In this document: positions 2,722 to 56,582 of the stretch, in pieces
Layout: every line of letters starts with the position of its first letter
Position numbering within the stretch: position 1 is the first letter of the stretch
Source: Candidatus Magasanikiibacteriota bacterium
GTDB lineage: Bacteria > Patescibacteriota > Patescibacteriia > Magasanikbacterales > GWA2-37-8
Direction of reading: 5' to 3'
Assembly: GCA_017991415.1 (NCBI GenBank)
Contig: JAGOQR010000002.1
Coordinates: 17,026 to 81,025, forward strand
DNA: 64,000 nt
Position numbers and translations under genes: made by a program
Notes under the pieces: generated by a model
What the model was told of the DNA's origin: nothing
The model's database searches: none
What the model saw: only the letters and a program-made list of their open reading frames with translations

Positions 2722-2940
2722 AATTTTAAATTATTATTCTTTAATCTAGTGCGCCCCGCTAAAATACGAAGTCGCTAGATTAAAGTTTGTTTCAATCAAC
2801 GAAACCGTTAGGTTTGTTGATTGAACTACAATGGTTTTACGAGCTTCTATAAGCCCTCGACCTGATGTAAAACCGCGATTAACACTTTCCTTCCCGCCTC
2901 CTCCGATACAATATCGAAAAAATACGGGATTTTATCTCTC

Positions 2941-9741: not shown

Positions 9742-9815
9742 TAGGCGCTTAGGGATTCGAACCCTAGACCTCCTCGGTGTAAACGAGGCGCTCTAACCAA
9801 CTGAGCTAAACGCCC
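9742..9815 (-). tRNA. tRNA-Val (anticodon TAC)
   Basis: Minus-strand cloverleaf GGGCGTT-TA-GCTCAGTTGGTTAGAGC-G-CCTCG-TTTACAC-CGAGG-AGGTC-TAGGGTTCGAATCCCTA-AGCGCCT-A. Anticodon loop TT-TAC-AC. Confidence 0.7.
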
Positions 9816-9878: not shown

Positions 9879-9951
9879 TGGGTCGGCTGGGGATCGAACC
9901 CAGGACCACTGCCTTAAAAGGGCATTGCTCTACCAGCTGAGCTACCGACCC
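9879..9951 (-). tRNA. tRNA-Lys (anticodon TTT)
   Basis: Minus-strand cloverleaf GGGTCGG-TA-GCTCAGCTGGTAGAGC...CTTTTAA...CTGGGTTCGATCCCCAG-CCGACCC-A. Perfect 7-bp acceptor stem. Confidence 0.7.
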
Positions 9952-36986: not shown

Positions 36987-38393
36987 TTATAATTTATTTC
37001 CTGGTAAAAACGGAGATCCGACAGATATAATACTATAACCTTTTTTTTGCAAACTTTCAAACCGACCTTGCAATATTCTTCTGCCATCCATTACTAAATA
37101 TGGGGCACTGCATACTTTTTCTATTTTTTCTCCCAGCAAACTAAACTGAGGCCAATCGGTCAAGATAATACAAGCATCACTTTGTTCAAGAGCTTGCTCT
37201 TCACTATCTGTATAATTTATTTTTTCGTCCCGAGAACCATTCTTGGATAAAAACGATTTAAACATTGGCAGAGCGGTAGGGTCATATACTTTAATTGCAG
37301 CCACTCCGTCAGCTATTAAATGATTAACAATATCAAATGCAGGAGAATTTCGAACATCATTAGTACCTTGCTTAAATGCAACCCCTAATATTGCAATTGT
37401 TTTTCCTTTCCAAGAAAAACTTGCTTCTTTTTCCGCTCGACTATAAAAATAGTCTCGCTGAAACTTATTTTCTTCTAAGGTTAGACGCACCTGATGAGCC
37501 CTACCTCCAGCTTCCTCTATCTGATGGGCCAATGAAGCGGCGTCTTTTATAAAACAGCTCCCTCCCGCATAAACACTGTCATAAAAACCCCAGGTGCCAA
37601 TACGAGGGTCGCTTGTAATAATTTTACGCACATTTTCAAACCGTACATCAGCAAACGATTCACAAACTCTCCCCATAACGCTAAACGTATTGGCCAATCT
37701 ATTAAACAACAAAAAATTTGCTAATAACTTACCAGCTGCAGCCTCAAATGGGTTAACTTCAATATATTGAATGGAAGTCGCATTGTGAAAACGACCGTAA
37801 ACCTCTCTCATTACCGCAAAATCCTTTTCACTTTCTGCCCCGATAATAATTCTATCTGGCCGCACAGAACCTTCCATAGCCTTACCCTCTACTAAGAATT
37901 CTGGATTAGAAACTACACCAATATTTTTTACACCATGACTATTCATTATATTACTTGTTTCTCTAACCATATTTATCGGCACGGTACTTTTATTTACAAT
38001 CACAACATACTTACTTTGCTCGCCATTATTTCTTTTCAATAAATTATCAGCCAATTTTTCCGTAGCCTGGTAATAAAAAGAAAGGTCAGACTCACCTTCT
38101 GAATTATTTTTTTCAGGTGTAGGTAAACATAAAAAAATAGCATCAACTGATTCTAGGCTTTCAATTACCTCGTCATAATTACTAGAAAATTTTATTCTCT
38201 CTTTATTTAAAAGCAACATTTCTCCCAGCCCTTTTTCAAATAAACACGACTCTATCTGATCGATATCATTTGAGCCTAATTTTTTTATTTTACTGTCATC
38301 TATATCATAGACAAGCACATCATGCCCAGAATCTGCCGAGATAGCAGCTGAACAAGTCCCCACATAACCAGATCCTATATATAAAATTTTCAT
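36987..38393 (-). CDS. UDP-glucose/GDP-mannose 6-dehydrogenase family protein
   Basis: MKILYIGSGYVGTCSAAIS N-terminal NAD motif. Catalytic Cys region GGSCFIKD. Confidence 0.65.
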   Translation of the reverse strand: MKILYIGSGYVGTCSAAISADSGHDVLVYDIDDSKIKKLGSNDIDQIESCLFEKGLGEMLLLNKERIKFSSNYDEVIESLESVDAIFLCLPTPEKNNSEGESDLSFYYQATEKLADNLLKRNNGEQSKYVVIVNKSTVPINMVRETSNIMNSHGVKNIGVVSNPEFLVEGKAMEGSVRPDRIIIGAESEKDFAVMREVYGRFHNATSIQYIEVNPFEAAAGKLLANFLLFNRLANTFSVMGRVCESFADVRFENVRKIITSDPRIGTWGFYDSVYAGGSCFIKDAASLAHQIEEAGGRAHQVRLTLEENKFQRDYFYSRAEKEASFSWKGKTIAILGVAFKQGTNDVRNSPAFDIVNHLIADGVAAIKVYDPTALPMFKSFLSKNGSRDEKINYTDSEEQALEQSDACIILTDWPQFSLLGEKIEKVCSAPYLVMDGRRILQGRFESLQKKGYSIISVGSPFLPGNKL

Positions 38394-43523: not shown

Positions 43524-45770
43524 CTATTTAAGAGTTAACAGATACACTGCATACTTATAGTCATAGCTTTGCCTACCAGTTAGTCGCTGTTTAAGCTTTA
43601 ACAAGGTAGGATCTGTCGGAACAGATTGAAATGTATCGACTACTACAAAACCATTTGGAATCTTGTCTGATGTGCCAGCGGATTCATATGCGCTATCCCC
43701 ATCAGAGCCAGTCGTAAAAAACCAAAATCGACTTTCTCCTACAATTGAACCAGCAAATACTTTTTCAAGATTGATTGGTGTTAAATTTTGAAAATATGTA
43801 TCTTTATAAAAATCATACAAACCAATACCCGCATCACCATTAATAATCAAATAGTCCCCTGTTCGTGCGTTGTTTTTTACAAATTCATAGCCTTTAAAAC
43901 CATTAAAATAACTTCCATTGATATACTGTGCAGACTGATAAAAATTATATAGGCCGCAGAGCGATACAACTACCATAGCGCCTAAAATAAAATATTTTCC
44001 TATACGATTCTTAACCTGCCAAGCGATTGTGCTTACCAGCATAATAAATAAGGGGAAGGCTACAAAAACATACTTAGGATACACGATAAAATTATATCGT
44101 GGATTAGCATAATTTAGAAAAAGCACATTCAATATAATTGAAGAAAAAAATAGGTATAGCAGAAGGTATGTTGGCTGGGAAAAATTCTTTCTATACAAAC
44201 CTCTTACCAAAAAGAACAGCAACGTAATCATAGTTACTACTCCCAAACCAAAAACTACCCAATTCCAAGGCAATATATTTTCCCCAAAAAAATAAGAGTA
44301 AAAATGAATCAAAAAATCGGATACTTTATCTATCAGAGATCGGCCTAGCAAGCTTGCTTTTTCAAAGCCCTTATCATGCTGCTTAAAAATCCTGAGATAA
44401 AATAGGTATACAATAGGTAAAAATGAAGTAGCGAGCGCTGCCTGACCAAGAAACCATTGTTTGATTACCATAACCCTGGTCGTTCTTATAAGAGTATAAA
44501 AGTAGTAGAGATTAACTAAAACGACTTCATATATGAAATGAGGCATATCAGCATAGCCAAGAAGTGCTGCAAAAATTAAAAATTTTATGAATGATTTTTT
44601 TTCATACCCCTGTAATATAATTTTGCAAAAATAAAACAAACTTACGAGCATCAAAAATCCAGACAGACTATGATATCGAGCCATTTGTGAAATAAGCAGA
44701 AAATAAGAAGAAATTGAGGTTAAGAATACAGTCCATCTGGCCAGCACCTTGTCCTTAAACAATAAAACAGAAAAATAATACACGGTAATTAATATGCCAA
44801 GACCAGATACCATAGAAACCAACCTAATACCGAGCTCCTTAGCGGCAAATAATTTATAAGAAATGATTACTAGAAGATAATACAGTGGCGGATGATTATC
44901 AGGGACTTTAAAGTATGCACGTAAAAAATCAATTGGATTTGGATTCTGATACATATACTCCAAAACAGCCTGCTCATCCATCCAAAAAGACCGCGCACTC
45001 ACCCTATATAAAAGCAAAAAAAGACCTAAGAGTAAAAGCCCTATAAAATACAAACTACTTTTATCATCTTGCAGCAACCGAGCCACCTTATAAAGAGAAT
45101 ACTTGGCAATCTGACCAAAAAATAGGAAGTATTCACTATAATTTAATTTTGAAGTGCTAAATTTTCTGATTCTAAATACAAACGGTATTTCTTTGAAATG
45201 GGTATACCTGGCTTTAACCAAAATTTCTAGTAAAATCTTATACCCTTTTGTTTCTAAGTTAACCCCGTCTAGAATACTCTTTTTAATAAAGAAATAACCA
45301 CTTAACGGATCCTTAACCTTGGTTAGTTTTGAGGCAAAAAATACCCCTACATTTGATACTAATTTTCTCCACCATTTCCATTTTTCTACAGAGCTCCCCG
45401 GGCTAAACCTACTACCAATAGCAACGTCTTGCTGCTCTAAAGAAAAAATTAGATCATTTAATATTTTTGGATCGTGGCTTAAGTCTGCATCCATCACACC
45501 AACATACGGGCGATTTGATAATGCAAAGCCCTCAATCACTGCACTGCCGAGCCCTAATTTACCAGAGCGATGGATAACCTGAATAGGATATTTTTTTTTC
45601 AAGTCTTCAGCCACAGCGCCAGTTCCATCTGGAGACGCGTCGTCAACAAAAATAATCTCCGCATCGATTCGAGCCCTATCCAAATTACTAAAAATTTCTT
45701 CTACCAATAATGGCAGATTGAGAGCCTCATTATAGGTAGGAATAATAATTGATACTTTCATCTCTGACAT
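43524..45770 (-). CDS. fusion: polyprenyl-phosphate sugar synthase-like GT2 domain (Dpm1/ArnC-like) + large polytopic GT-C-like membrane domain
   Basis: N-terminal 230 aa carries VSIIIPTYNEALNLPLLV...FVDDASPDGT...GVMDADLSHDP. It is followed by about 500 aa with 11 or more TM helices. Confidence 0.5.
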   Translation of the reverse strand: MSEMKVSIIIPTYNEALNLPLLVEEIFSNLDRARIDAEIIFVDDASPDGTGAVAEDLKKKYPIQVIHRSGKLGLGSAVIEGFALSNRPYVGVMDADLSHDPKILNDLIFSLEQQDVAIGSRFSPGSSVEKWKWWRKLVSNVGVFFASKLTKVKDPLSGYFFIKKSILDGVNLETKGYKILLEILVKARYTHFKEIPFVFRIRKFSTSKLNYSEYFLFFGQIAKYSLYKVARLLQDDKSSLYFIGLLLLGLFLLLYRVSARSFWMDEQAVLEYMYQNPNPIDFLRAYFKVPDNHPPLYYLLVIISYKLFAAKELGIRLVSMVSGLGILITVYYFSVLLFKDKVLARWTVFLTSISSYFLLISQMARYHSLSGFLMLVSLFYFCKIILQGYEKKSFIKFLIFAALLGYADMPHFIYEVVLVNLYYFYTLIRTTRVMVIKQWFLGQAALATSFLPIVYLFYLRIFKQHDKGFEKASLLGRSLIDKVSDFLIHFYSYFFGENILPWNWVVFGLGVVTMITLLFFLVRGLYRKNFSQPTYLLLYLFFSSIILNVLFLNYANPRYNFIVYPKYVFVAFPLFIMLVSTIAWQVKNRIGKYFILGAMVVVSLCGLYNFYQSAQYINGSYFNGFKGYEFVKNNARTGDYLIINGDAGIGLYDFYKDTYFQNLTPINLEKVFAGSIVGESRFWFFTTGSDGDSAYESAGTSDKIPNGFVVVDTFQSVPTDPTLLKLKQRLTGRQSYDYKYAVYLLTLK

Positions 45771-45773
45771 AGA

Positions 45774-46931
45774 TTATTTAATAGTACTAAACCCCTCTCT
45801 ATTTTGCCAAAAATAGTGCCAACTGCAAACTATATTATTATGACACTCGTCAAGAATAGTAAAAACATGAGCATATCGTAAGGTATTTTGAAGAATATAC
45901 GGTGCTACTACCAAAAGAATAATCACAAAAATACTGACATACTTCCAAAATTTTCCTTTTTTAAATAGTTCATACAAAGCATATACAGCTATAGGTAAAA
46001 ATAGCCATGCGGAAATAAATACTGTTCGAGCAATAAATACTGGCCAAGAAAAATATGAAAAAGATGTGGGTAGTATGGCTAACAAATATACTCCTATATC
46101 TTTATCAACACTACGGCGATTTTTATAGAGCAACCCTAAACCACAAATAACTGGAATCCAGACTAAATTATAAGTACTTACATTTACACCAAACCAACGT
46201 ATAAATTTATAATTATCTGGACCCCAGTACTTCCATGTATCAAGAATATATGTAAACGAAGAAAAACCTATCTCCAGACCTCGCAACGAATTGATTACCA
46301 TAGTAATCAGAGGGAAAAAAGCAAACAATACTAGATACTGAATTGTTCTTTTTAAATTATTATTCTCTAATAAGATAATTATCCCTGCAAAAACTGCCCC
46401 CATGGCACCAGATTCTTTTGTAAGCATGCCAAATGCCACCGAAACACTGCTGAGCAGCAACCAACCATTGTGTTTTTGTTCTCGCCATCGCCAAATGGCA
46501 TATATAGTAAGTACACACCAAAAATAACCTCCGATATCTTGCACTTGGGTTAAGCCATATCGAATCATGGCATAGTTTGTAGCTACAAGTAATGCAGTTA
46601 TAAAACCAATCCATTTATTCTTAAAAACCCGAGCAACTAAAGCATGGGTAAGAAACAAGAGGCCGAAGTAAAAAATAATATTTATAACAATAATACTTTG
46701 TGCAGGAGATAAGAAAAAAAGAAGCTTGGCGCCCACAAGCGGATAGAAAGGCACCATATATCGATTAGGTACTAATACTTGGCTTTCACCTTTGAAAAAC
46801 TCAACCGTACTAATAAAGGTATCTGTATCATTGTTTGGATGAAAACCAAACGCAACATAAAAAATAACCAGATTTAAAACTCCAATAATAAAGAGCGCTA
46901 TATGTAGACTATTTTTTCTAAAAAAATCCAT
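45774..46931 (-). CDS. polytopic membrane protein, GT-C-like glycosyltransferase candidate
   Basis: 10 or more TM helices. No soluble domain. Confidence 0.3.
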   Translation of the reverse strand: MDFFRKNSLHIALFIIGVLNLVIFYVAFGFHPNNDTDTFISTVEFFKGESQVLVPNRYMVPFYPLVGAKLLFFLSPAQSIIVINIIFYFGLLFLTHALVARVFKNKWIGFITALLVATNYAMIRYGLTQVQDIGGYFWCVLTIYAIWRWREQKHNGWLLLSSVSVAFGMLTKESGAMGAVFAGIIILLENNNLKRTIQYLVLFAFFPLITMVINSLRGLEIGFSSFTYILDTWKYWGPDNYKFIRWFGVNVSTYNLVWIPVICGLGLLYKNRRSVDKDIGVYLLAILPTSFSYFSWPVFIARTVFISAWLFLPIAVYALYELFKKGKFWKYVSIFVIILLVVAPYILQNTLRYAHVFTILDECHNNIVCSWHYFWQNREGFSTIK

Positions 46932-46953: not shown

Positions 46954-47670
46954 TTAATATGTTTTAATACGCCATTTTAAAATAGTCCACAACACAACCA
47001 ACCCGTCTCGATATCGAATTTTTTTTCCTTCAGCAAAAGTTCTTGGGTTATAATGAATAGGAACTTCAATAATGTTGAGCCCCTTTCTAAATAGCTTACA
47101 CAATAATTCAATATCATAGGCAAAACCATTGGCTTCAATTGGCACATGAGCCATAAGCTGACGAGGAATTATTTTGTAACAAGAAAAAAAATCCGTGCCT
47201 CGACGATTATATAACAGATTGATACTAGTAATTATGAGTTTATTGCCCAAATAGGTAAGCGGATGCGGATGAGACCAGCCCGTTCGATAATTATTTGGAC
47301 CATTAAACAAGACTCGTGAACCAACACTAATGTCTGCTTTTTTTTCAAGCACTGGCGCAAGCAAGGCGGCTAAATCTTCTGGATCATATTCAAGGTCAGC
47401 ATCCTGAATAGTGATATAATCCCCTGTTGCCTCAGCAATACCTATTTTTACGGAAGCACCCTTACCGCTATTTTTCTCTTTAAAAATAACTTTATAGGTG
47501 TTCGCTATATTTTTTAAAATCTCTTTAGTACCATCTATTGAACAATCATCAACAATGATGATTTCTTTTTCACAATGAGGTAACACAACCTGATCTACTT
47601 TTTTTAGTATTTCAAGAATTGTATTTTTCTCATTATAAACTGGAATAACTATGGAAAGCTTGACAGACAT
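46954..47670 (-). CDS. family 2 glycosyltransferase (polyprenyl-phosphate glycosyltransferase-like)
   Basis: MSVKLSIVIPVYNEKNT...IVDDCSIDGT...IQDADLEYDP. The ATG at 47670 is preferred over 47694. Confidence 0.6.
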   Translation of the reverse strand: MSVKLSIVIPVYNEKNTILEILKKVDQVVLPHCEKEIIIVDDCSIDGTKEILKNIANTYKVIFKEKNSGKGASVKIGIAEATGDYITIQDADLEYDPEDLAALLAPVLEKKADISVGSRVLFNGPNNYRTGWSHPHPLTYLGNKLIITSINLLYNRRGTDFFSCYKIIPRQLMAHVPIEANGFAYDIELLCKLFRKGLNIIEVPIHYNPRTFAEGKKIRYRDGLVVLWTILKWRIKTY

Positions 47671-47671
47671 A

Positions 47672-48835
47672 TTACAATAACGAACTATACACATGAGCTA
47701 ACTTCTTCTTAAAGAGATCTACATCAAATCGTCCTTTTTCTTTTACACAAGCCTCTTTTAAACTACGGTAAAGATTATCATTGTCCAGTGCCAACAGGGC
47801 TTTTTTAAATGCTACCGGGTTTGCGTCAACTACCAAAATACCTGCAGATCCTACAACTTCAGGAATAGCCCCAGAAGTTGTACTAATGATTGGACAGCCT
47901 TGCAAAATAGCGTCTACTAAAGAGTAACCAAACTGCTCTTGCCAGGTCCTCGTTGGCGTACTACCTAAAAGAAAAGAATGGGCATGTTTATATAATTGTT
48001 TTATTTCTTTATTTGAAATACTGCCAATAGATATAACGGTATCAGACAGGCCAAGCTCCAAAACTAATCTGCGAAAATTGAGAGACTCTTTACCATCTCC
48101 AACCACTACTAATTTTCTATTTTGTTGTTTTGTTTCTCTTAGGTACATCTTCCAGGCATACAAAACATCGTAGATGCCTTTTTCCCAAACCATACGACCA
48201 ACAAAAAGACTGAACACGCTATTTTTTAAATTTAGAGTTTCAACGAGCGTACCAGCACCTGCCTCTATAGTAAGCGCTGGATAAACCACTTCTACCTGGT
48301 TTTGTGCAGCGCCCATCTCGTAAGCCAACTCGGCTGAATCGTGAGAATATGCCAAAAATTTATCTACCCCTAAAATAGTTTCTTTAATTATACCATTTAT
48401 TTTTTTTCTCCAATACTGGGGTGGGGAGCTAAAACCTGGCCAATAATTATATTCAAATCTCCCGAATGTATTATCAACAAAATTAGCAACTACTTTAAGT
48501 TTCGGATTATTCTTTTTTGCCCGCACACACTGAAGCGTATAATAGTTATACGCTTCAACACCATGCGCAATATTAAAATCTATAAGTTTTTTTTCTAGCC
48601 CAAACATTCGTTGATATTGACCAAACCCATATTTAAAATAATTTTTTAAAAAAAAATTATCCGCTGTAGCAGGCAACCTTACAACCTCTAGGTTGATATT
48701 ATGCAAAGGGAAAACATTTTTTCTACCACAAAAAGCTGTCGTTTCAAACTGATCTCCTAAACCTTCCCACAAGGCTGCTTCTTGCTCTTTAAGACTATCT
48801 CCGCGAACTAAAGCGATTTTTATTTTTTCTCCCAT
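47672..48835 (-). CDS. GT-B fold glycosyltransferase (family 4-like)
   Basis: C-terminal GT1/GT4 motif FVGRMVWEKGIYDV...E...FGYSLVDA. Confidence 0.55.
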   Translation of the reverse strand: MGEKIKIALVRGDSLKEQEAALWEGLGDQFETTAFCGRKNVFPLHNINLEVVRLPATADNFFLKNYFKYGFGQYQRMFGLEKKLIDFNIAHGVEAYNYYTLQCVRAKKNNPKLKVVANFVDNTFGRFEYNYWPGFSSPPQYWRKKINGIIKETILGVDKFLAYSHDSAELAYEMGAAQNQVEVVYPALTIEAGAGTLVETLNLKNSVFSLFVGRMVWEKGIYDVLYAWKMYLRETKQQNRKLVVVGDGKESLNFRRLVLELGLSDTVISIGSISNKEIKQLYKHAHSFLLGSTPTRTWQEQFGYSLVDAILQGCPIISTTSGAIPEVVGSAGILVVDANPVAFKKALLALDNDNLYRSLKEACVKEKGRFDVDLFKKKLAHVYSSLL

Positions 48836-48847
48836 AATAGATTTTTA

Positions 48848-49837
48848 TTAAAGCTTTTTCATTCGCCCGCTTATTTGCTCCATCATTTTAGTTACTTTAT
48901 ATCCAAAATCAAAACCGGTAAGTGGTGTTTTGCCCATATTTACACATTCAATAAAATGATCGAGCTCGTTTTTTAAAGGCTCTTGAGCAACAACCGAAGC
49001 AATAACTGGCTGATCAGCTGCACCAGGTAAAAATAAAGAGGATTGTTTTTTATCCCAAACTGGATATTTATGTTGGAACGATTTTAATTTATGCTCATCA
49101 CGATCATTAAAAAGTACCATGCCACTATCGCCTACTAGGGTAATTTTCCTAACTTTTTCAGGCCAGTACCAAGAGGTTAATAAATGGACCATGAGACCGC
49201 TTTGAAATGTTACGCTCACCGCCCCAAAATCATCGTTGTTAGTTTTGCCAATTGAACGACGAGCCCCCGCAACGCTCTTTACCTTACCAGGAGAAAATAG
49301 ATATTCTAAAATAGCACAATCATGAATAGCTGCATCCATAAAACTACCTACATCAGCACGAAATGGGCCGCAATACAGGTTTTCACCGAGAACATACTTT
49401 ACTATGCCAAGTTCTTTAATATGATTTTTAAGATATCGAATGTAATCATTATATACATATTGAAAACCAACCATGAAGACTAGTTTTTTATTTTTTTTCA
49501 ATTCTTTTTTAATAGCATGTGTTTCCGCAACACTAATAACCATCGGCTTTTCAACAAAAACATGCTTGCCCGCACGAAGGGCTTTCACAATTACCTGAGC
49601 ATGAGTAGATGGCGGTGTGGCAATTACCACACAATCAATACACACGTCATTAATAATCTCATCTGCATCCAAACTAATTTTTACATTCTCAGGAAGATGA
49701 ATAGCACTTTTTTTAAACACGTCGCCAGATTTATTTGCCACTGCTACCAACTGCACATCTGGATTTTCCTGCAATAAACGAGCATAATGCTTACCAAAAT
49801 GCCCTAACCCTATGATCCCAAATTGCAGGGTTTTCAT
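48848..49837 (-). CDS. Gfo/Idh/MocA-family NAD(P)-dependent oxidoreductase
   Basis: LQFGIIGLGHFGKHYARLL N-terminal Rossmann motif; EKP motif. Confidence 0.6.
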   Translation of the reverse strand: MKTLQFGIIGLGHFGKHYARLLQENPDVQLVAVANKSGDVFKKSAIHLPENVKISLDADEIINDVCIDCVVIATPPSTHAQVIVKALRAGKHVFVEKPMVISVAETHAIKKELKKNKKLVFMVGFQYVYNDYIRYLKNHIKELGIVKYVLGENLYCGPFRADVGSFMDAAIHDCAILEYLFSPGKVKSVAGARRSIGKTNNDDFGAVSVTFQSGLMVHLLTSWYWPEKVRKITLVGDSGMVLFNDRDEHKLKSFQHKYPVWDKKQSSLFLPGAADQPVIASVVAQEPLKNELDHFIECVNMGKTPLTGFDFGYKVTKMMEQISGRMKKL

Positions 49838-49856: not shown

Positions 49857-52148
49857 TTATGCCAACACACTTTTCATCCACCTATACGAACGACGTAGAC
49901 CATCGTGCAAATTAATGGATGGATGGTAATCAATCATTGATTTTGCTTTGGATAAATCAGGACATCGTCTTGATGGCTCATCTTGCGGATAGGTCTCTGG
50001 GTAGTTCACTAGGCTTATTTCAACTTTTTTATCAGTCACAACTTCTGCCACAACATCTGCCAAACTTTTCATGTTAATTTCTTGATCATCATTACCAATA
50101 TTAAATACTTCTCCATTTTTATCAGAAAGCAATACCTTAAAGAAACCAATCATTGCGTCTGAAACATAACAAAAAGTACGTGTTTGATTGCCTTTATCAT
50201 GTACGGGGAGTGGCATACCAGCGATAGCTTGGCTTAAGAATGTGGGTACTACCCGATAATCTTTAGCGCTCATACCTGGCCCATATACATTAAATGGACG
50301 AACAAATTTTACTGGGGTCTTGTGTGTTTGGTAATAGGCCATGCAAAGTGTTTCACCAAGGCGTTTGGACTCATCGTAGCAAGATCTTGGACCAATTGAA
50401 GAAACATTTCCTTTATATGTTTCAGGAGTAGGGATAAACTTTGGATCCGGATCACCATAAATTTCACTGGAACTAAAATACAAAATACTCTTAACATTTT
50501 TTGCCATGCCTAATTTTAGCATGTTATTTAAGCCTAAGACAGTCCCTTCAATTGTTTCGATTGGAAACTTTTTATAATATACAGGAGATGCAATACCCGC
50601 AGCAGAAACTATATAATCGATCGGTGTATCAATAGTAATTTCATTACAAATATTATGTTCTTTAAACTCAATATGTTCACTATATAAATCTTTAAGAAGA
50701 TTATTCTTTCTACCAACAATATGATTATCCAACGAAAGAATTTTACATGGTTCTTTAAAGTATTTTTTATTAAGCAAATCTATAATGGCTGTAAAATAAC
50801 TGCCAATAAAACCAGACCCACCTGTAATTAACACACGCTTACCTTCAAGAGGCTTGGCAATTTCGGCAATAGCCTTGGTAATAACGTCAAGATCTTCCTC
50901 TACTACACCGTTAACAATATGCGCAAACGGCACGGGAATAATAAAATTAGTAAAATCTGGGCACTGCTTAATGATAGAATCAGCAAAATTCCAGGCCAAA
51001 ATTAATATATAGTCTGGCGGAGTTTCCGCAAGGGCTGTTTTTGCTAATACTGGAATATGTGTTCCTGGTGTATATAAACCTTGCTTCCAAACACTATCAT
51101 CCACGACATAATCAACAATATCTGGCCCAATATTAAAATAGTTTAATAAGGTATTGCCTTTTGCTGGCGCGCCATAAGCAACAATACGTTTTCCTTTAGC
51201 TTTTAAATCTGCGAGCAAATCCAAAAGCCGTGTTTTATTTTCGGTAATTTTCTGTTGGAAATTTAGATGTGTTTCTATATCATGAATTTTTACGGCATCT
51301 TCTTGAGCAATAAATGCATTCACACTTGGCATAACCTGATTTTTTCCACCATTTTTTTGCACAAAAACCCTCAAGGAACCACCGTGAGTATCTGTTCTAT
51401 CAACGTCAAAAACTTCCATACCCAAACGCTTGAATAAGGTGCTTATAGTTTTAACTGTGAAATACGAAAGATGCTCGTGATATATTGTATCGAATAAATT
51501 CTTACCAATTAAATCTACTAAGTAATAGGCTTCAATAATAAATACACCGTCATCAGCAAGTAGTGTTTTTACACCAGCCACCACCTCGTCTAAATCGTCT
51601 ATATGAGGAAACACACTTGTCGCTGTCATGATTGATGCTTTGCCTTTTTCTGCTACTATTTTTTGAGCAACTTCTGAAGTAAAATAAGCGGCCATTGTTT
51701 CAATTCCATTTTTAGTAGCCATAGCTGCAATGTTGGCAGCTGGGTCAACTCCCATTACTTTTACACCAGCTTCTTTATACGGACGTAATAAAATTCCGTC
51801 ATTGCTCCCAATATCGACTACTAATGATTCGTTATTTAGACCAAACCGATTTATCATTTCTCCTGCAAACGTTTTGAAATGAGAAACGAACACGGGAGAA
51901 GTTGAAGACGTATACACATAGTTACCGAATAAAAGATCTGGCGAAACAACATGCCCAAGCTGAACAAAAGAACAGTCTTTGCAAAAAAATAGCTCTAAGG
52001 GAAAACTAGGTTCATCGTTTCCAAGATCCTCTTTTTTTAAAAAAGCATTAGCTGGCGGAGTACTTCCCAGACTTAAAACTTTTTCTAAATTTTTCCCCTT
52101 ACAAACACGACAGATTTCACTTTTTTTGTACAAAGATTCATTGGACAT
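49857..52148 (-). CDS. bifunctional fusion: NDP-sugar C-methyltransferase domain (TylC3-like) + UDP-glucuronate decarboxylase/UXS-like short-chain dehydrogenase domain
   Basis: N-terminal zinc ribbon CRVCKGKNLEKV...LANAFL...FFCKDCSFVQL, SAM-MTase core and C-methyltransferase C-terminal domain (about 410 aa). This is followed by VLITGGSGFIGSY...SSSEIYGDP...YDESKR (about 330 aa). Confidence 0.55.
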   Translation of the reverse strand: MSNESLYKKSEICRVCKGKNLEKVLSLGSTPPANAFLKKEDLGNDEPSFPLELFFCKDCSFVQLGHVVSPDLLFGNYVYTSSTSPVFVSHFKTFAGEMINRFGLNNESLVVDIGSNDGILLRPYKEAGVKVMGVDPAANIAAMATKNGIETMAAYFTSEVAQKIVAEKGKASIMTATSVFPHIDDLDEVVAGVKTLLADDGVFIIEAYYLVDLIGKNLFDTIYHEHLSYFTVKTISTLFKRLGMEVFDVDRTDTHGGSLRVFVQKNGGKNQVMPSVNAFIAQEDAVKIHDIETHLNFQQKITENKTRLLDLLADLKAKGKRIVAYGAPAKGNTLLNYFNIGPDIVDYVVDDSVWKQGLYTPGTHIPVLAKTALAETPPDYILILAWNFADSIIKQCPDFTNFIIPVPFAHIVNGVVEEDLDVITKAIAEIAKPLEGKRVLITGGSGFIGSYFTAIIDLLNKKYFKEPCKILSLDNHIVGRKNNLLKDLYSEHIEFKEHNICNEITIDTPIDYIVSAAGIASPVYYKKFPIETIEGTVLGLNNMLKLGMAKNVKSILYFSSSEIYGDPDPKFIPTPETYKGNVSSIGPRSCYDESKRLGETLCMAYYQTHKTPVKFVRPFNVYGPGMSAKDYRVVPTFLSQAIAGMPLPVHDKGNQTRTFCYVSDAMIGFFKVLLSDKNGEVFNIGNDDQEINMKSLADVVAEVVTDKKVEISLVNYPETYPQDEPSRRCPDLSKAKSMIDYHPSINLHDGLRRSYRWMKSVLA

Positions 52149-52159
52149 ACTTATAAATT

Positions 52160-52555
52160 CTAGATCAAATTAACACGAACGGTATCTTCTTCGTAATTTT
52201 CTTGACTACGAGATTTTAAAGCCATAACAACCCAAACAGAGTCTTCGGTGAATTTCATAGCATGAGCAATCATCGGACCCGAAAAAACCATGTCACCAGC
52301 CTCAAGCATTACTCTTGTTTCTTGGCTCAAATCAGGCTGACCATCTTTAAGAGGCGCTTCGATATATTCCATTTTTCCAGAATACATATATACATAATGA
52401 CCATCTTCTTTATGATAGTGATTAGCGCGCACAGAACCTTTTGTAGAAGTAATTAATAAAATACTCTTAATTGAGGTTTTGCCATCATCTAACAGCTTTG
52501 TAATTGACCCTCGTGCATCAGTAAAATCTGGCTGAATATTTTTTGTAATCTCCAT
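52160..52555 (-). CDS. cupin-fold sugar 3,4-ketoisomerase-like protein (FdtA/WxcM-like)
   Basis: 131 aa. DARGSITKL...VRANHYHK pattern resembling FdtA-type dTDP-4-keto-6-deoxyhexose isomerases. Confidence 0.4.
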   Translation of the reverse strand: MEITKNIQPDFTDARGSITKLLDDGKTSIKSILLITSTKGSVRANHYHKEDGHYVYMYSGKMEYIEAPLKDGQPDLSQETRVMLEAGDMVFSGPMIAHAMKFTEDSVWVVMALKSRSQENYEEDTVRVNLI

Positions 52556-53460: not shown

Positions 53461-54192
53461 TTATTTGAGATTTTTCTTTAAAAATTCCTCTACCTCTTTA
53501 TATTTTTCCATATCATCAATACACTTCGTATAATCATCACATTCATAACTATAAAATTTAAGACCGCGTCTGACAATATCGGGCAGAAGTTGTTTGCCGA
53601 TCTCAAAATACGTGTTAGCGGGAACATATCGAAGAATCTCTTTTTTCAAAATAAAGACACCCTTCATTCTATACGCATTGGCATAAGTTGTGGTGTGAGG
53701 TTTGGGATGTATTGCTACATAACCGTTATCAGCAGCGACTTCAGCCACATCCGCATCTTGATAATAGTCGGTTTTTTGCATTTTTTGAATACCAAGAGCA
53801 TCTGAATAGTTTGCAAACTCTTTTTCCATTTTAGAATAATCCATCAAACTAAACATGTCTCCATAAATCACAAAAAAAGTACTATCTAACAAACTTTCAA
53901 AATCTTTTACGCCGCCGGCTGTGCCCAAAGCTTCTTTTTCTTGAAAATAATTTATTTTTACCCCCCACGGCTTACCATCTCCAAAATAATCACGGATAAT
54001 ATCAGGAAGGTGATATAAATTTATAAAAAACTCTGTCACACCATGTTTTTTAAATTGCTCTATATTCCACTCGAGAAGCGGCTTATCAAAAAAAGGAATC
54101 ATTGGCTTTGGCATGGTGTCAGTTAGTGGACGCATGCGAGTGCCCAGACCAGCACATAAAATAACTGCTTGCTTAATCTTAATGCTATCCAT
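53461..54192 (-). CDS. D-glycero-alpha-D-manno-heptose 1-phosphate guanylyltransferase-like nucleotidyltransferase (HddC-like)
   Basis: AVILCAGLGTRMRPLTDTMPKPMIPF G-loop. 243 aa, no LbH domain. Sits next to the gmhA/hddA/gmhB genes. Confidence 0.5.
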   Translation of the reverse strand: MDSIKIKQAVILCAGLGTRMRPLTDTMPKPMIPFFDKPLLEWNIEQFKKHGVTEFFINLYHLPDIIRDYFGDGKPWGVKINYFQEKEALGTAGGVKDFESLLDSTFFVIYGDMFSLMDYSKMEKEFANYSDALGIQKMQKTDYYQDADVAEVAADNGYVAIHPKPHTTTYANAYRMKGVFILKKEILRYVPANTYFEIGKQLLPDIVRRGLKFYSYECDDYTKCIDDMEKYKEVEEFLKKNLK

Positions 54193-54198
54193 ATAATT

Positions 54199-54798
54199 TT
54201 ATCTTTCTATAATTTGCACAGCCTGCCTCAAATCTTTTACTTCGAAATCAGGTTTTATATTTTTATATTTTTTATCTAATCTGGCATGTCCAGGACCAGT
54301 CTTTACTAAAATAGTTTTAAGGCCTGATTTTTTTCCAGCAACTATATCAATCAGAGCATCCCCGACCATAAAACTTTTTTTTATATCAATTTTTAACTGC
54401 TTAGAAGCACGAAGAATCATCCCAGGCGCTGGTTTTCGACAACGACAACGCACGCGATATTTTTTAAGGTTTGCTTTCGGGTGGTGTGGACAAAAATGCA
54501 CAACATCTATACGTGCTCCTTTTTTTTTCAATCTATTAATAAGAGCTGCGTGAATTGCATCGATCTCTTTCTCGTCGACCATCCCACGGGCAACAACTGG
54601 TTGATTTGTTATTACAATTACTAAAAAACCATTCCGGTTTAACTCGCGAATTGCAGATGATACTCCAGGCAAAAGCCGAAGATCTTGTACAGAATGCATT
54701 AAATCAACATGCTGAATAATTGTTCCGTCACGATCAAAAAAAACCGCTTTATTTAAACGAGAATTAACTTTTATAGGTGCAAAACTTTCCTCATTCAT
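54199..54798 (-). CDS. gmhB: D,D-heptose 1,7-bisphosphate phosphatase GmhB (HAD family)
   Basis: FFDRDGTI HAD motif I, and the GmhB-specific zinc-binding CPHHP...CRCRKPAPGM motif. Confidence 0.7.
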   Translation of the reverse strand: MNEESFAPIKVNSRLNKAVFFDRDGTIIQHVDLMHSVQDLRLLPGVSSAIRELNRNGFLVIVITNQPVVARGMVDEKEIDAIHAALINRLKKKGARIDVVHFCPHHPKANLKKYRVRCRCRKPAPGMILRASKQLKIDIKKSFMVGDALIDIVAGKKSGLKTILVKTGPGHARLDKKYKNIKPDFEVKDLRQAVQIIER

Positions 54799-54831
54799 AA
54801 ACGACCCTTATGCTTAACTATACTTCCTAAA

Positions 54832-55422
54832 TTATCCTGCTGAATGATCAAAATAATCTTGAAAATATGTAATAATAAGATGCAGCACAACACAATGCAC
54901 TCCTTCGACTATTCCGTATTCTCCTTTTTCGGTTTTCACTAAAATTTTTGCATCGGATAATTCGTTAAGCTTTCCCCCATCAAAGCCAGAGAGGCCAATT
55001 ACAGGTACCTTACGTGATTTTGCTAACTCAACTGCCTTTATTATATTTATTGAGTTGCCAGAACTCGATATAGCAATTATTACATCTGCATCTTGCAGAT
55101 AATTTTGCAACGGACCAGCAAAGACCATATCATACCCAATATCATTGGCCCAAGCAGTAAGTTCTGACTCTGTAGAAGGCAATCGCACTGCCTGAAAACG
55201 CCGTGAATGTTTTTCTAAATTATGACTAAAAACAGTTTTATTAAAATCACCAACCCAATGAGTCGCCAAAGCCAAAGACCCTCCGTTACCAAAAATATAA
55301 ATACGACCATCACGCTCATAACAGGCCTGCAAAATATTTATTGCTTTAGCAATTTCTTCGTGAGGCAGATTCTCTAAAGAACCTGTAGCTTTATTGGCAA
55401 ATTTTTTTATATATTCAAGCAT
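54832..55422 (-). CDS. gmhA: phosphoheptose isomerase GmhA (SIS domain)
   Basis: IYIFGNGGSLALATHWVGDF and ISSSGNSINI SIS motifs. About 196 aa. Confidence 0.7.
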   Translation of the reverse strand: MLEYIKKFANKATGSLENLPHEEIAKAINILQACYERDGRIYIFGNGGSLALATHWVGDFNKTVFSHNLEKHSRRFQAVRLPSTESELTAWANDIGYDMVFAGPLQNYLQDADVIIAISSSGNSINIIKAVELAKSRKVPVIGLSGFDGGKLNELSDAKILVKTEKGEYGIVEGVHCVVLHLIITYFQDYFDHSAG

Positions 55423-55429
55423 ACTATAT

Positions 55430-56455
55430 TTATACTAGATTTGTGTGAGGAGCATGACCTTCGTTATACAAAATCTCTGCACCAGACTTAGCAAATTTGA
55501 TTGGTATTTCCTGGAAATTCAACATATTATTTTCAGTAGCAATTTTTTTCATTGCTTGTTGTATTGCAGATTTTTTTTCTGGTGAAGATAGAAACATGAC
55601 ACACCCACCGCCACCTGCACCTAATACTTTTCCTCCCCAAGCTCCCGCTTCCATACCTGCCTCATATAATTTATCTATTAAAGGATTGGAAACATTCGAA
55701 GCCAACGACTTCTTTTTTACCCACCCATTATGCAGCATCCAGCCCAATCCTTTAAAATCTCCTGCGAGCAAACGCGCTTCAAACTCCAACACAGAGTCAG
55801 CCATCTCTTTAAGTGTTTCAAATTTTTTGTCGATATTTGTTTTTTGTTCAGTAAGAACACTCGAGGCATTACGAGTAAGGCCAGTAAAAAAAACTGACAA
55901 ACTATTTTCTAAAATGGAACTTTTTTTATAATCTAAAAGTACAGGTCGTACGTCTACAGAATCATCCGCATTAAACTGTATAACATTAAAACCACCAAAC
56001 GAAGATGCAAACTGATCTTGCGGACCAATTGGCTCTCCCAACAATTCTATCTCCAGACGAGCTGCATATTTTGCCGCTTCATACGGATCCAATTTCTTGC
56101 CTAAAAAAGCATGAAGCGCTTTACCAAGTGCTACCGAAAAACTAGAGGAAGAACCTAGCCCAGTTTTAGCAGGCAAATTTGCAAATGAGCTTATTTCAAT
56201 ATTTTTATGGATACCAAGATCAAGCAGCGCGGCTTTGATGCGTGTATGCTGCAACTCTGCAGGATGATCAACAGTCTCTGTGAGAGAATATTTAGCAGAA
56301 ATTTTATCTATAAGGGGTGTGTGATTAACTACCACATAGACATATTTATCTATAGCGGTAGATATAACACGACCTGTATATTTTCGGTAAAAATCTGGTA
56401 AATCAGTCCCCCCACCCACAAAACTCATGCGTAACGGCGCTCTTACTATAATCAT
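55430..56455 (-). CDS. GHMP-family D-glycero-D-manno-heptose 7-phosphate kinase (HddA-like)
   Basis: MIIVRAPLRMSFVGGGTDLPDFY N-terminus and GHMP motif PAKTGLGSSSS. The ATG at 56455 is preferred. Confidence 0.6.
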   Translation of the reverse strand: MIIVRAPLRMSFVGGGTDLPDFYRKYTGRVISTAIDKYVYVVVNHTPLIDKISAKYSLTETVDHPAELQHTRIKAALLDLGIHKNIEISSFANLPAKTGLGSSSSFSVALGKALHAFLGKKLDPYEAAKYAARLEIELLGEPIGPQDQFASSFGGFNVIQFNADDSVDVRPVLLDYKKSSILENSLSVFFTGLTRNASSVLTEQKTNIDKKFETLKEMADSVLEFEARLLAGDFKGLGWMLHNGWVKKKSLASNVSNPLIDKLYEAGMEAGAWGGKVLGAGGGGCVMFLSSPEKKSAIQQAMKKIATENNMLNFQEIPIKFAKSGAEILYNEGHAPHTNLV

Positions 56456-56582
56456 AAGTAACAAATTAACGTGGGTCAAATGGCCCGCTAAAAGTTGAAT
56501 TTAGCGGTATATTACGCTATCCCATATTTTTTTCAAGCCCACCACACTTCTGGCTCGAAAGGATTTGATATAAAAACGAGAT

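What the first reader, a model, noticed from the sequence alone, without database searches (positions are those of the whole stretch)
49857..52148. Single-polypeptide fusion of an NDP-sugar C-methyltransferase and a UXS-like decarboxylase/4-keto-forming dehydrogenase
The first about 410 aa have the hallmark TylC3/NovU-type C-methyltransferase N-terminus: a Cys-x2-Cys...Cys-x2-Cys zinc ribbon, a LANAFL substrate motif and a SAM-binding core. The last about 330 aa are a UDP-glucuronate-decarboxylase-like SDR with GxxGxxG, SSSEIYGDP and YDESKR motifs. C-methyltransferases act on 4-keto sugars, which are exactly what UXS-type enzymes generate. The fusion would channel the keto intermediate and predicts a C-methyl-branched pentose or hexose in this organism's glycan. 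I do not recognise this domain combination as a described enzyme.
Basis: partly seen in the sequence, partly recalled or inferred. Interest (0 to 1): 0.55.

Follow-up and report, generated by a model that had tools for sequence, protein, structure and literature searches.

The report
Fused sugar decarboxylase and C-methyltransferase
One gene in this candidate-phyla bacterium joins an enzyme that turns UDP-glucuronic acid into a reactive keto-pentose to an enzyme that adds a methyl branch to keto-sugars; the same two enzymes sit side by side or fused in hundreds of other microbes, which points to a widespread, still undescribed route to a methyl-branched pentose for cell-surface glycans.

Summary
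Window 49857-52148 (-) is one 763-aa ORF. Residues 1-412 are a complete TylC3/TcaB9/MtmC-type sugar C-methyltransferase. Residues 413-763 are an extended SDR far closer to human UDP-xylose synthase (E 3e-57) than to any other solved SDR. All catalytic residues of both halves are kept. It is not a frameshift artefact: the identical protein occurs on 7 independently assembled contigs, and more than 100 full-length homologs exist.

The fusion is a special case of a widespread unit. Of 80 reference-genome loci picked with SDR-only motifs, 71 carry the C-MT nearby. Most are adjacent separate genes. Fusions arose at least three times, in both domain orders. The conserved operon is FdtA-like cupin, C-MT, SDR, then a GFO/IDH/MocA oxidoreductase. 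A DPMS/ArnC-like GT2 and often UDP-glucose dehydrogenase lie nearby; the window has its own at 36987-38393.

Best reading: an Arn-like pathway runs UDP-GlcA to UDP-4-keto-pentose to a C-methylated pentose to a polyprenyl-phosphate donor. The methyl position and the roles of the cupin and GFO are unresolved. I found no description in the literature. Databases name these proteins only generically.

The parts
49857..52148 (-). Fusion gene, 763 aa: C-methyltransferase joined to a UXS-like decarboxylase SDR
   Evidence: ORF; Pfam; PDB matches; identical protein on 7 contigs; more than 100 full-length homologs
50913..52148 (-). C-methyltransferase module (aa 1-412): Zn ribbon, SAM-MT core and PF08484 C-terminal domain
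   Evidence: PF08421, PF13489 and PF08484. MtmC 2e-95 and TcaB9 2e-73, with equivalents of Y76, H181, Y222, E224 and H225 at Y77, H182, Y223, E225 and H226. These are invariant in A1/A2 and 61-69 of 69 across loci
49857..50912 (-). UXS/ArnA-like extended SDR module (aa 413-763): predicted UDP-GlcA 4-oxidase/decarboxylase
   Evidence: hUXS1 E 3e-57 versus 7e-27 for the next SDR. S560, E562, Y591, K595 and R728 correspond to hUXS1 T118, E120, Y147, K151 and R277. They are conserved in 73 of 73 loci, with S or T at the first position
52160..52555 (-). 131-aa cupin directly upstream; FdtA/QdtA-fold (NDP-4-keto-sugar 3,4-ketoisomerase-like)
   Evidence: Present in 48 of 75 loci, always on the same strand, and immediately upstream of the MT in 37 of 48. 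AF2 pLDDT 96.8. Foldseek top hits are FdtA, QdtA, FdtD, HCAN_0198 and WlaRA, TM 0.71-0.74. Cupin-MT and MT-cupin fusions exist
48848..49837 (-). GFO/IDH/MocA oxidoreductase directly downstream; candidate keto-sugar reductase
   Evidence: Pfam. Nearest NCBIfam model is UDP-GlcNAc 3-dehydrogenase, 4e-39, below cutoff. Present in 40 of 75 loci, median distance 1 nt downstream
47672..48835 (-). GT4 glycosyltransferase that co-occurs with the module
   Evidence: Pfam; same cluster found in 24 of 75 loci
46954..47694 (-). Small GT2, polyprenyl-phosphate glycosyltransferase-like (DPMS/ArnC/AglJ type)
   Evidence: Same cluster found in 41 of 75 loci. NCBIfam AglJ 4e-29, ArnC 3e-14, PpgS 8e-11. PDB DPMS 5mlz 2e-20 and ArnC 9hwj 2e-13
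43524..46931 (-). Two GT-C (PMT_2/ArnT-type) membrane glycosyltransferases; the 748-aa one is fused to a GT2. Candidate users of the lipid-linked sugar
   Evidence: Pfam PF13231/PF02366 and PF00535; NCBIfam. Their link to the module is inferred from proximity only
36987..38393 (-). UDP-glucose 6-dehydrogenase-like gene: supply of UDP-glucuronic acid in the same same-strand cluster
   Evidence: phmmer versus the locus UGDH cluster, 2e-34. TIGR03026 scores 262 bits against a cutoff of 189.8; best equivalogs are TuaD and AglM

Best explanation
The gene encodes a bifunctional nucleotide-sugar enzyme.

Proposed steps:
1. The C-terminal UXS/ArnA-type SDR oxidises UDP-glucuronic acid at C4 with bound NAD+ and decarboxylates it to UDP-4-keto-pentose. 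The UDP-GlcA is made by the UDP-glucose dehydrogenase in the same cluster.
2. The N-terminal TylC3/TcaB9-type enzyme takes this keto-sugar. It removes the proton next to the carbonyl with its conserved His and transfers a methyl group from SAM to that carbon. By analogy with all structurally characterised relatives, this carbon is most likely C3.
3. The keto group is then reduced. This is done either by the NADH left on the SDR domain (completing a UXS-like cycle, which would explain why the two active sites are kept together) or by the GFO/IDH/MocA oxidoreductase encoded next door.
4. The FdtA-like cupin encoded immediately upstream reshapes the keto intermediate, by ketoisomerisation or epimerisation.
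5. The resulting UDP-C-methyl-pentose is loaded onto a polyprenyl phosphate by the small DPMS/ArnC-like GT2. GT-C enzymes then use it to decorate a surface molecule. Overall this is an Arn-like pathway in which methylation replaces transamination and formylation.

Shown here: domain identities, conserved catalytic residues, the reality of the fusion, and the conserved gene neighbourhood.

Inferred: the substrate, the order of steps, the methyl position, which enzyme reduces, and the lipid carrier.
For: Domain identity and catalytic residues.

Coupling of the two modules:
- 71 of 80 loci selected with SDR-only motifs also carry the C-MT. Of these, 42 are directly adjacent in the order MT>SDR, often with 4-nt overlaps.
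- Fusions occur in both orders and from at least 3 origins, and the MT and SDR trees are congruent.
- Further fusions occur within the module: cupin-MT followed by an SDR gene, and MT-cupin.

UDP-GlcA as substrate:
- The SDR is specifically UXS-like and keeps the Glu and Arg needed for decarboxylation in 73 of 73 sequences.
- UDP-glucose 6-dehydrogenase is adjacent in 15 of 75 loci and present in the window's cluster.

Lipid-carrier step:
- A DPMS/ArnC/AglJ-like GT2 is in 41 of 75 loci.
- PMT_2 GT-C genes lie in the window and in L005.
- Minimal Woesearchaeota loci consist of just GT2, cupin and the fusion among housekeeping genes.

Parallel design: the same SDR subclade is fused to a split transketolase, followed by a small GT2, with a PMT-type GT-C nearby.
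Against: - There is no biochemical evidence for any step.
- An FdtA-type 3,4-ketoisomerase cannot act on a 3-C-methylated 4-keto sugar. The simple order decarboxylate, C3-methylate, reduce therefore leaves the most conserved partner (the cupin) without a role (notebook 'unexplained').
- The neighbouring GFO enzyme is nearest to C3 oxidoreductases. This hints at a 3-keto intermediate and a different methyl position.
- The AF2 model gives no confident inter-domain geometry (pTM 0.58), so channelling is unsupported.
- The SDR scores far below the NCBIfam cutoffs for UXS/U4kpxs and ArnA (83 against 294 bits, and 71 against 777). It is a distinct subfamily whose substrate could differ.
- Characterised family members of the MT use dTDP-6-deoxyhexoses, not UDP-pentoses.
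Confidence: 0.6

Rival explanations
1. Same enzymes, different order and product. The SDR works like ArnA and releases UDP-4-keto-pentose and NADH. The FdtA-like cupin moves the carbonyl to C3. The MT methylates a carbon next to the 3-keto group (C4 or C2). The GFO/IDH/MocA enzyme, or a classical SDR in some loci, reduces C3. The product is a 4-C- or 2-C-methyl pentose rather than a 3-C-methyl pentose.
For: - The cupin has the 3,4-ketoisomerase fold and an HxH pair.
- The GFO protein is nearest to nucleotide-sugar 3-dehydrogenases.
- The operon order is cupin-MT-SDR-GFO.
- A separate reductase (GFO in 25 loci, classical SDR in 5) is present in 30 of 50 loci with full flanks.
- Cupin-MT fusions exist.
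Against: - The invariant core is MT plus SDR. The cupin is present in 66% of the 50 loci with full flanks and GFO in 50%, and some loci have neither.
- MT catalytic residues are identical to those of C3-methylating enzymes acting on 4-keto sugars.
- Minimal loci lack any separate reductase.
Confidence: 0.25
2. The MT methylates C5, as NovU does. This converts the 4-keto-pentose into a 4-keto-6-deoxyhexose, which the cupin and a reductase then process as in ordinary 6-deoxyhexose or 3-amino-sugar pathways.
For: - The family includes a C5-methyltransferase (NovU; from my own knowledge, not tested here).
- FdtA/QdtA-type cupins normally act on 4-keto-6-deoxyhexoses.
- DegT aminotransferases occur in 9 loci.
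Against: - This is a roundabout route to sugars that a single 4,6-dehydratase makes.
- The best-matching solved relatives are all C3-methyltransferases.
- The aminotransferase is present in only 9 of the 50 loci with full flanks (18%).
Confidence: 0.07
3. The two halves serve unrelated pathways: plain UDP-xylose synthesis, and C-methylation of a dTDP-deoxyhexose. They are fused only by chance of adjacency. Alternatively, the SDR uses another uronic acid such as UDP-GlcNAcA.
For: - Glycan clusters mix many sugar pathways. The window also holds an NDP-heptose pathway.
- The SDR is below the equivalog cutoffs.
- In-frame stop-start junctions make accidental fusion easy.
Against: - Adjacency or fusion is seen in 71 of 80 loci across many phyla, in both fusion orders, with at least 3 origins and congruent trees.
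- The linked dehydrogenase is of the UDP-glucose type, not the UDP-GlcNAc or UDP-ManNAc type.
- No dTDP-glucose 4,6-dehydratase is conserved in the neighbourhood.
Confidence: 0.08

Closest known systems
ArnA (bifunctional UDP-GlcA oxidative decarboxylase / UDP-Ara4N formyltransferase) and the Arn pathway (ArnB, ArnC, ArnT)
   Same: - A two-domain protein with the UDP-GlcA decarboxylase SDR at the C-terminus and a sugar-modifying domain at the N-terminus.
- The Ser-Glu, Tyr-x3-Lys and Arg catalytic set.
- A pathway context with an ArnC-like polyprenyl-phosphate GT2 and ArnT-like GT-C enzymes.
   Different: - The N-terminal domain is a SAM C-methyltransferase, not a formyltransferase.
- No aminotransferase is consistently linked (9 of 50 loci).
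- The SDR is closer to UXS (3e-57) than to ArnA (about 1e-14).
- The NCBIfam ArnA score is 71 bits against a cutoff of 777.
UDP-xylose synthase (UXS1; 2b69, 4gll)
   Same: It is the best solved relative of residues 435-760. GxxGxxG, DNxxxGRKxN, (S/T)SE, YDExKR, QTR and the R277 equivalent are all conserved.
   Different: - UXS stands alone and returns the hydride to the unmodified 4-keto-pentose.
- Here the SDR forms a separate subfamily with an extra N-terminal helix, and it is almost always paired or fused with a C-MT.
- It scores below the NCBIfam UXS/U4kpxs cutoff.
TylC3 / TcaB9 / KijD1 / MtmC NDP-sugar C3-methyltransferases
   Same: The three-domain architecture, the four Zn cysteines, and the catalytic Tyr, His, Tyr, Glu and His.
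   Different: - Known members are standalone enzymes of antibiotic deoxysugar pathways. They act on dTDP-4-keto-6-deoxyhexoses supplied by a 4,6-dehydratase.
- Here the keto-sugar supplier is a decarboxylase, so the predicted substrate is a UDP-pentose.
- The context is cell-surface glycan synthesis in CPR, DPANN and marine bacteria.
CapF (Cap5F) of Staphylococcus aureus: SDR fused to a cupin acting on a UDP-4-keto sugar
   Same: An SDR and a small NDP-sugar cupin cooperate on a UDP-4-keto intermediate. The cupin profile matches the Cap5F cupin domain (E 9e-4).
   Different: - CapF has no methyltransferase or decarboxylase.
- The roles of the CapF domains (C3 epimerisation by the cupin, C4 reduction by the SDR) are recalled from my own knowledge and were not tested here.
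UDP-apiose/UDP-xylose synthase (UAXS; 6h0p)
   Same: It is the only known route from UDP-GlcA through a 4-keto intermediate to a branched-chain pentose. It is an SDR related to the C-terminal half (E 2e-21).
   Different: UAXS makes the branch by ring contraction within one active site and needs no SAM. Here the branch would be an added methyl group from a separate domain.

Membership tests
TylC3/TcaB9-type NDP-sugar C-methyltransferase | Three-part architecture: PF08421 Zn-binding domain, class-I SAM MT core and PF08484 C-terminal domain | tested here: met
   All three score above the Pfam gathering cutoffs (82.7, 60.0 and 186.2 bits)
TylC3/TcaB9-type NDP-sugar C-methyltransferase | Four zinc-binding cysteines, and catalytic residues equivalent to TcaB9 Y76, H181, Y222, E224 and H225 | tested here: met
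   C13, C16, C56, C59, Y77, H182, Y223, E225 and H226 align to these positions. They are invariant in A1/A2. Across 69 loci, Y, H and Y are 69/69 and the E-H pair is 61/69
TylC3/TcaB9-type NDP-sugar C-methyltransferase | SAM-dependent C-methylation of an NDP-4-keto sugar | not testable with these tools
   Needs an enzyme assay
UXS/ArnA-type UDP-glucuronic acid decarboxylase (extended SDR) | Rossmann GxxGxxG, a catalytic Ser/Thr-Tyr-Lys triad, and the decarboxylase-specific Glu (hUXS1 E120) and Arg (R277) | tested here: met
   G443, G446, G449, S560, E562, Y591, K595 and R728. Conserved in 73 of 73 loci
UXS/ArnA-type UDP-glucuronic acid decarboxylase (extended SDR) | Closer to UXS than to other extended SDRs (4,6-dehydratases, epimerases) | tested here: met
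   hUXS1 E 3e-57 against 7e-27 or weaker for all other solved SDRs. The motif is SSE, not the TDE of 4,6-dehydratases
UXS/ArnA-type UDP-glucuronic acid decarboxylase (extended SDR) | Reaches the curated NCBIfam equivalog cutoff (PRK11908 UXS/U4kpxs; PRK08125 ArnA) | tested here: not met
   83.4 bits against a cutoff of 294, and 71.3 against 777. It is a distinct subfamily and should not be filed as an orthologue of either
UXS/ArnA-type UDP-glucuronic acid decarboxylase (extended SDR) | Turnover of UDP-GlcA with loss of CO2 | not testable with these tools
   Indirect support only: UDP-glucose 6-dehydrogenase is linked in 15 of 75 loci and in the window
FdtA/QdtA NDP-4-keto-sugar 3,4-ketoisomerase (for the upstream cupin) | A small (about 135 aa) cupin fold superimposable on FdtA/QdtA | tested here: met
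   AF2 pLDDT 96.8. The top 22 Foldseek PDB hits are all 3,4-ketoisomerases, TM 0.71-0.74 over 130-134 aligned columns
FdtA/QdtA NDP-4-keto-sugar 3,4-ketoisomerase (for the upstream cupin) | The catalytic His-x-His pair (FdtA H49/H51) | tested here: inconclusive
   H46-Y-H48 is invariant or nearly so, and H98 is invariant. The position is consistent with the collinear profile alignment 11-119 versus 11-123 of FdtA. I could not obtain a residue-level alignment to FdtA. The same residues also resemble a metal-binding cupin site
FdtA/QdtA NDP-4-keto-sugar 3,4-ketoisomerase (for the upstream cupin) | Reaches the Pfam PF05523 gathering score | tested here: not met
   22.4 bits against a cutoff of 23 for the window protein. 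8 of 18 family members match at E<0.01
Polyprenyl-phosphate glycosyltransferase (DPMS/ArnC/GtrB-type GT2) (for 46954-47694) | A GT-A catalytic domain most similar to Dol-P/Und-P sugar synthases | tested here: inconclusive
   The best PDB matches are DPMS 5mlz (2e-20) and ArnC 9hwj (2e-13). The best NCBIfam match is AglJ (4e-29), but all matches are below cutoff. Only a short hydrophobic C-terminal helix is present, not the multi-helix membrane domain

The most novel reading that the evidence does not exclude
The pair or fusion is an 'interrupted UDP-xylose synthase'. The SDR oxidises and decarboxylates UDP-GlcA and hands the 4-keto-pentose to the C-methyltransferase. It then takes the methylated keto-sugar back and reduces it with its own transiently formed NADH. 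The product is a nucleotide sugar not yet known in nature, UDP-3-C-methyl-pentose (or, with the cupin and GFO enzymes, a 4-C-methyl isomer). This sugar is then carried on polyprenyl phosphate and displayed on the surfaces of CPR bacteria, DPANN archaea and abundant marine bacteria, including Prochlorococcus and SAR11 relatives.
Probability: 0.4. Interest if true: 0.72.

Novelty: new variant of a known kind. Interest (0 to 1): 0.6.

Why it matters
- It would add a second route from UDP-glucuronic acid to a branched-chain pentose, besides UDP-apiose synthase. It would also be the first use of a TylC3-type C-methyltransferase on a UDP-pentose outside antibiotic deoxysugar pathways.
- The module is widespread, so an unknown methyl-branched sugar may be a common component of microbial surface glycans. 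It occurs in CPR, DPANN, Alpha- and Gammaproteobacteria, Nitrospinaceae, Prochlorococcus and Pelagibacteraceae single-cell genomes, Omnitrophota and Elusimicrobia. It also occurs in cultured Sorangium, Mycobacterium and Pontiellaceae strains.
- The repeated fusion, in either order, gives a clean and testable case. It asks how an SDR with a tightly bound cofactor can share its keto intermediate with a second active site.
- The cultured carriers make the prediction experimentally approachable.

Tried and rejected
1. Frameshift or assembly artefact: rejected. The identical protein is on 7 contigs and full-length homologs are numerous.

2. The adjacent NDP-heptose genes (SIS, GHMP kinase, HAD, NTP-transferase; 53461-56479) as substrate suppliers for the fusion: rejected. 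They are not conserved around the pair elsewhere; an NTP-transferase cluster is in only 6 of 75 loci.

3. Plasmid collection search: it found only MT-type matches next to unrelated oxidoreductases. None covered at least 80% of the query, so it was uninformative.

4. AF2 model of the whole fusion, to look for a fixed interface: pTM is 0.58 and a conserved SDR loop (562-587) has pLDDT below 50. No conclusion on channelling is possible.

5. The cupin as an oxalate-decarboxylase-like enzyme. The OxdC hits cover only the generic HxH...H cupin core (about 65 residues). Full-length sequence and fold matches are to NDP-sugar cupins. I kept this only as a hint of possible metal binding.

6. Residue-level alignment of the cupin to FdtA: not obtained, because the alignments printed were all OxdC.

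7. Six literature searches combining C-methyltransferase, TcaB9 or 3-C-methyl terms with UXS, UDP-GlcA or pentose terms: nothing relevant. Subscription-only papers are not covered.

8. Solved relatives of the GFO protein: only generic inositol or sugar dehydrogenases, which say nothing about regiochemistry.
Full report
**1. The observation**

Window 49857-52148 on the minus strand is a single ATG-initiated ORF of 763 aa.

Residues 13-407 carry the three Pfam domains that together define the TylC3/TcaB9 class of nucleotide-sugar C-methyltransferases:
- PF08421 zinc-binding domain, E 2e-23
- PF13489 SAM methyltransferase core
- PF08484 C-methyltransferase C-terminal domain, E 5e-55

Residues 439-753 are an extended SDR (PF01370 at 3e-40, and PF16363).

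Against solved structures, the N-terminal half matches MtmC (4rv9, 2e-95), TcaB9 (2e-73) and KijD1 (8e-71). The C-terminal half matches human UDP-xylose synthase at 3e-57. The next best SDR of any other kind reaches only 7e-27. The only correction is that the 'LANAFL' motif reads PPANAFL.

**2. Catalytic residues**

The alignment to TcaB9 places four cysteines (C13, C16, C56, C59) on its zinc site. It places Y77, H182, Y223, E225 and H226 on TcaB9 Y76, H181, Y222, E224 and H225. The E224Q mutant entry 4e2y in the same output confirms the register.

The alignment to hUXS1 places S560, E562, Y591, K595 and R728 on T118, E120, Y147, K151 and R277. The numbering was derived from the printed alignment. 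The roles of these residues in UXS come from my knowledge of the UXS and ArnA literature.

The motif is S-S-E, as in decarboxylases, and not the T-D-E of 4,6-dehydratases.

Across 73 SDR and 69 MT domains from other genomes, these positions are essentially invariant.

The SDR nevertheless scores far below the NCBIfam cutoffs for UXS/U4kpxs and ArnA. It is a separate subfamily, not an orthologue of either.

**3. The fusion is real, but it is the rarer form of a common gene pair**

The identical protein is called on 7 contigs from different sequencing runs. More than 100 clusters of full-length homologs, from 97% to 52% identity, come from CPR bacteria (Magasanikbacteria, Woesebacteria) and DPANN archaea.

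A second group (P0110, P0115-P0120) has the two modules in the opposite order, with the SDR first.

A scan of one genome per species used two peptide motifs that both lie in the SDR. It returned 80 loci. In 71 of them the C-MT is nearby. The breakdown is:
- 42 are directly adjacent separate genes in the order MT>SDR, often with 4-nt overlaps or an in-frame stop-start junction
- 3 are fused MT-SDR
- 3 are fused SDR-MT
- The rest are a few hundred bases to a few kb apart, or cut by contig ends

Taxa include Alpha- and Gammaproteobacteria, Nitrospinaceae, Prochlorococcus and Pelagibacteraceae single-cell genomes, Elusimicrobia, Omnitrophota and Verrucomicrobia. Cultured Sorangium sp. So ce1078, Mycobacterium sp. 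E796 and Pontiellaceae B12219 are also represented.

Neighbour-joining trees of the two domains are broadly congruent. They place the fused genes in at least three separate positions, one of them sister to an unfused SDR>MT pair. Fusion therefore happened repeatedly. This is strong comparative evidence that the two enzymes work on the same pathway intermediate.

**4. The conserved module**

I clustered all ORFs within 7 kb of the pair in 75 non-redundant loci. I then restricted the counts to the 50 loci with at least 3 kb on both sides.

| Partner | In 75 loci | In 50 full-flank loci | Notes |
|---|---|---|---|
| ~135-aa cupin | 48 | 33 | Always same strand; immediately upstream of the MT in 37 of 48 |
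| ~243-aa GT2 | 41 | 31 | Window copy at 46954-47694 |
| GFO/IDH/MocA oxidoreductase | 40 | 25 | Directly downstream |
| GT4 | 24 | 19 | Window copy at 47672-48835 |
| Small class-I methyltransferase | 20 | 16 | |
| UDP-glucose 6-dehydrogenase | 15 | 11 | AglM/TuaD-like; above the TIGR03026 cutoff |
| DegT aminotransferase | 9 | 9 | |

The window has the whole set:
- cupin at 52160-52555
- GFO at 48848-49837
- GT4 at 47672-48835
- GT2 at 46954-47694
- two PMT_2/ArnT-type GT-C proteins at 43524-46931
- a UDP-glucose dehydrogenase-like gene at 36987-38393

In Woesearchaeota the module shrinks to GT2, cupin and the fusion, embedded among housekeeping genes.

Other fusions occur inside the module:
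- cupin-MT (P0149), itself followed by an SDR gene
- MT-cupin (P0175)
- the same SDR subclade fused to a split transketolase (P0250), followed by a small GT2, with a PMT-type GT-C nearby

**5. The partners**

The cupin family has no functional name in any source. Its AF2 model is very confident (pLDDT 96.8). The best structural matches are all NDP-4-keto-sugar 3,4-ketoisomerases (FdtA, QdtA, FdtD, HCAN_0198, WlaRA) at TM 0.71-0.74 over the full length. They rank ahead of the larger RmlC epimerases.

The cupin has an invariant H46-x-H48 pair and an invariant H98. The titles of the FdtA entries name H49 and H51 as the mutated residues. The same histidines also resemble a metal-binding cupin core.

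The GFO protein is nearest to nucleotide-sugar 3-dehydrogenases, but below cutoff. Solved relatives are uninformative.

The small GT2 is nearest to dolichyl-phosphate mannose synthase and ArnC and to AglJ, Dol-P-hexose transferase and PpgS.

**6. Mechanism**

The best-supported reading is an Arn-like pathway:
1. UDP-glucose is converted to UDP-GlcA by the dehydrogenase.
2. UDP-GlcA is converted to UDP-4-keto-pentose by the SDR module.
3. The keto-pentose is C-methylated by the MT module.
4. The keto group is reduced.
5. The sugar is transferred to a polyprenyl phosphate by the small GT2.
6. GT-C enzymes use the lipid-linked sugar.

The domain chemistry follows from the conserved catalytic residues. 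The substrate follows from the UXS-type residues and the linked dehydrogenase. The rest is inference.

Because the invariant core is MT plus SDR, and some loci have nothing else, I favour a core cycle in which the SDR's own NADH re-reduces the methylated keto-sugar. This would explain why the two active sites are kept adjacent or fused. However, the AF2 model of the fusion gives no confident inter-domain geometry (pTM 0.58).

The main unresolved point is the cupin. A 3,4-ketoisomerase cannot act on a sugar already methylated at C3. There are two possibilities:
- It acts first, and the methyl goes next to a 3-keto group. The GFO enzyme then reduces C3.
- It does something else, such as epimerisation or an alpha-ketol shift.

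I therefore commit to 'C-methyl-branched pentose from UDP-GlcA' at about 0.6. I give C3 as the position only about 0.4.

**7. Comparison with what is known, and novelty**

It works like ArnA in architecture: a C-terminal decarboxylase plus an N-terminal modifying domain, in a lipid-carrier context. It works like UXS in the SDR chemistry, and like TylC3 and TcaB9 in the methyl transfer.

It is not a member of the ArnA or UXS equivalogs (cutoffs not met). It has no formyltransferase domain.

Six full-text searches found no paper that links these enzyme types. Database names are generic: 'NAD-dependent epimerase/dehydratase family protein', 'NDP-hexose 3-C-methyltransferase' and 'UDP-glucuronate decarboxylase'.

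I rate it a new variant of known kinds, of moderate to high interest. It predicts an undescribed sugar in many environmentally abundant lineages, and it is directly testable.

Noticed in passing
L089 8001-10846 (protein P0250): The same UXS-like SDR subclade is fused to a transketolase N-terminal (ThDP) domain. It is followed by the transketolase pyr/C-terminal half and then a small GT2. A PMT-type GT-C and a UbiA/FAD/short-chain-dehydrogenase trio lie nearby. This suggests a parallel pathway that adds a two-carbon branch to the keto-pentose.
   Followed up: partly
window 53461-56479 (-): A complete NDP-D-glycero-D-manno-heptose set sits directly upstream of the module: HddA-like GHMP kinase, GmhA-like SIS isomerase, GmhB-like HAD phosphatase and HddC-like nucleotidyltransferase. 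It is not conserved around the pair in other genomes, so it is probably a second sugar of the same glycan.
   Followed up: partly
window 43524-45770 (-): A 748-aa protein fuses a polyprenyl-phosphate-type GT2 domain to a PMT_2 (ArnT-like GT-C) membrane domain. The enzyme that makes the lipid-linked sugar and the one that uses it are thus in a single polypeptide.
   Followed up: no
loci L020, L027, L031, L068, L069, L071, L073, L083 (MT genes): Eight of the 69 paired C-methyltransferases have Asp-Arg in place of the Glu-His pair that includes the proposed catalytic base of TcaB9. They form one divergent clade, which includes Mycobacterium sp. E796.
   Followed up: partly
loci L010, L011, L014, L015, L017, L018, L021, L022: In several unfused pairs the SDR start codon follows the MT stop codon by 0-3 nt, in frame. 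A single point mutation would fuse the genes, which may explain the repeated fusions.
   Followed up: no
window 1-64000: Almost every gene in the 64 kb is on the minus strand, with GC skew negative throughout. Bacterial markers (DnaG, FtsW, CCA-adding enzyme) and DUF5667 proteins fit a CPR/Patescibacteria genome. Two tRNA genes lie at 9742-9815 and 9879-9951.
   Followed up: partly
window 1-2730 (-) and 61891-63426 (-): Two large ORFs (a 910-aa fragment and a 511-aa protein) have no Pfam match. The second lies next to the Wzx-like flippase gene, at the edge of the glycan cluster.
   Followed up: no
window 49857-52148, residues 562-587: The stretch EIYGDPDPKFIPTPETYKGNVSSIGP is nearly invariant in the family, yet it is predicted with pLDDT below 50 in the AF2 model. 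It may be a loop that orders only on substrate binding or oligomerisation.
   Followed up: no
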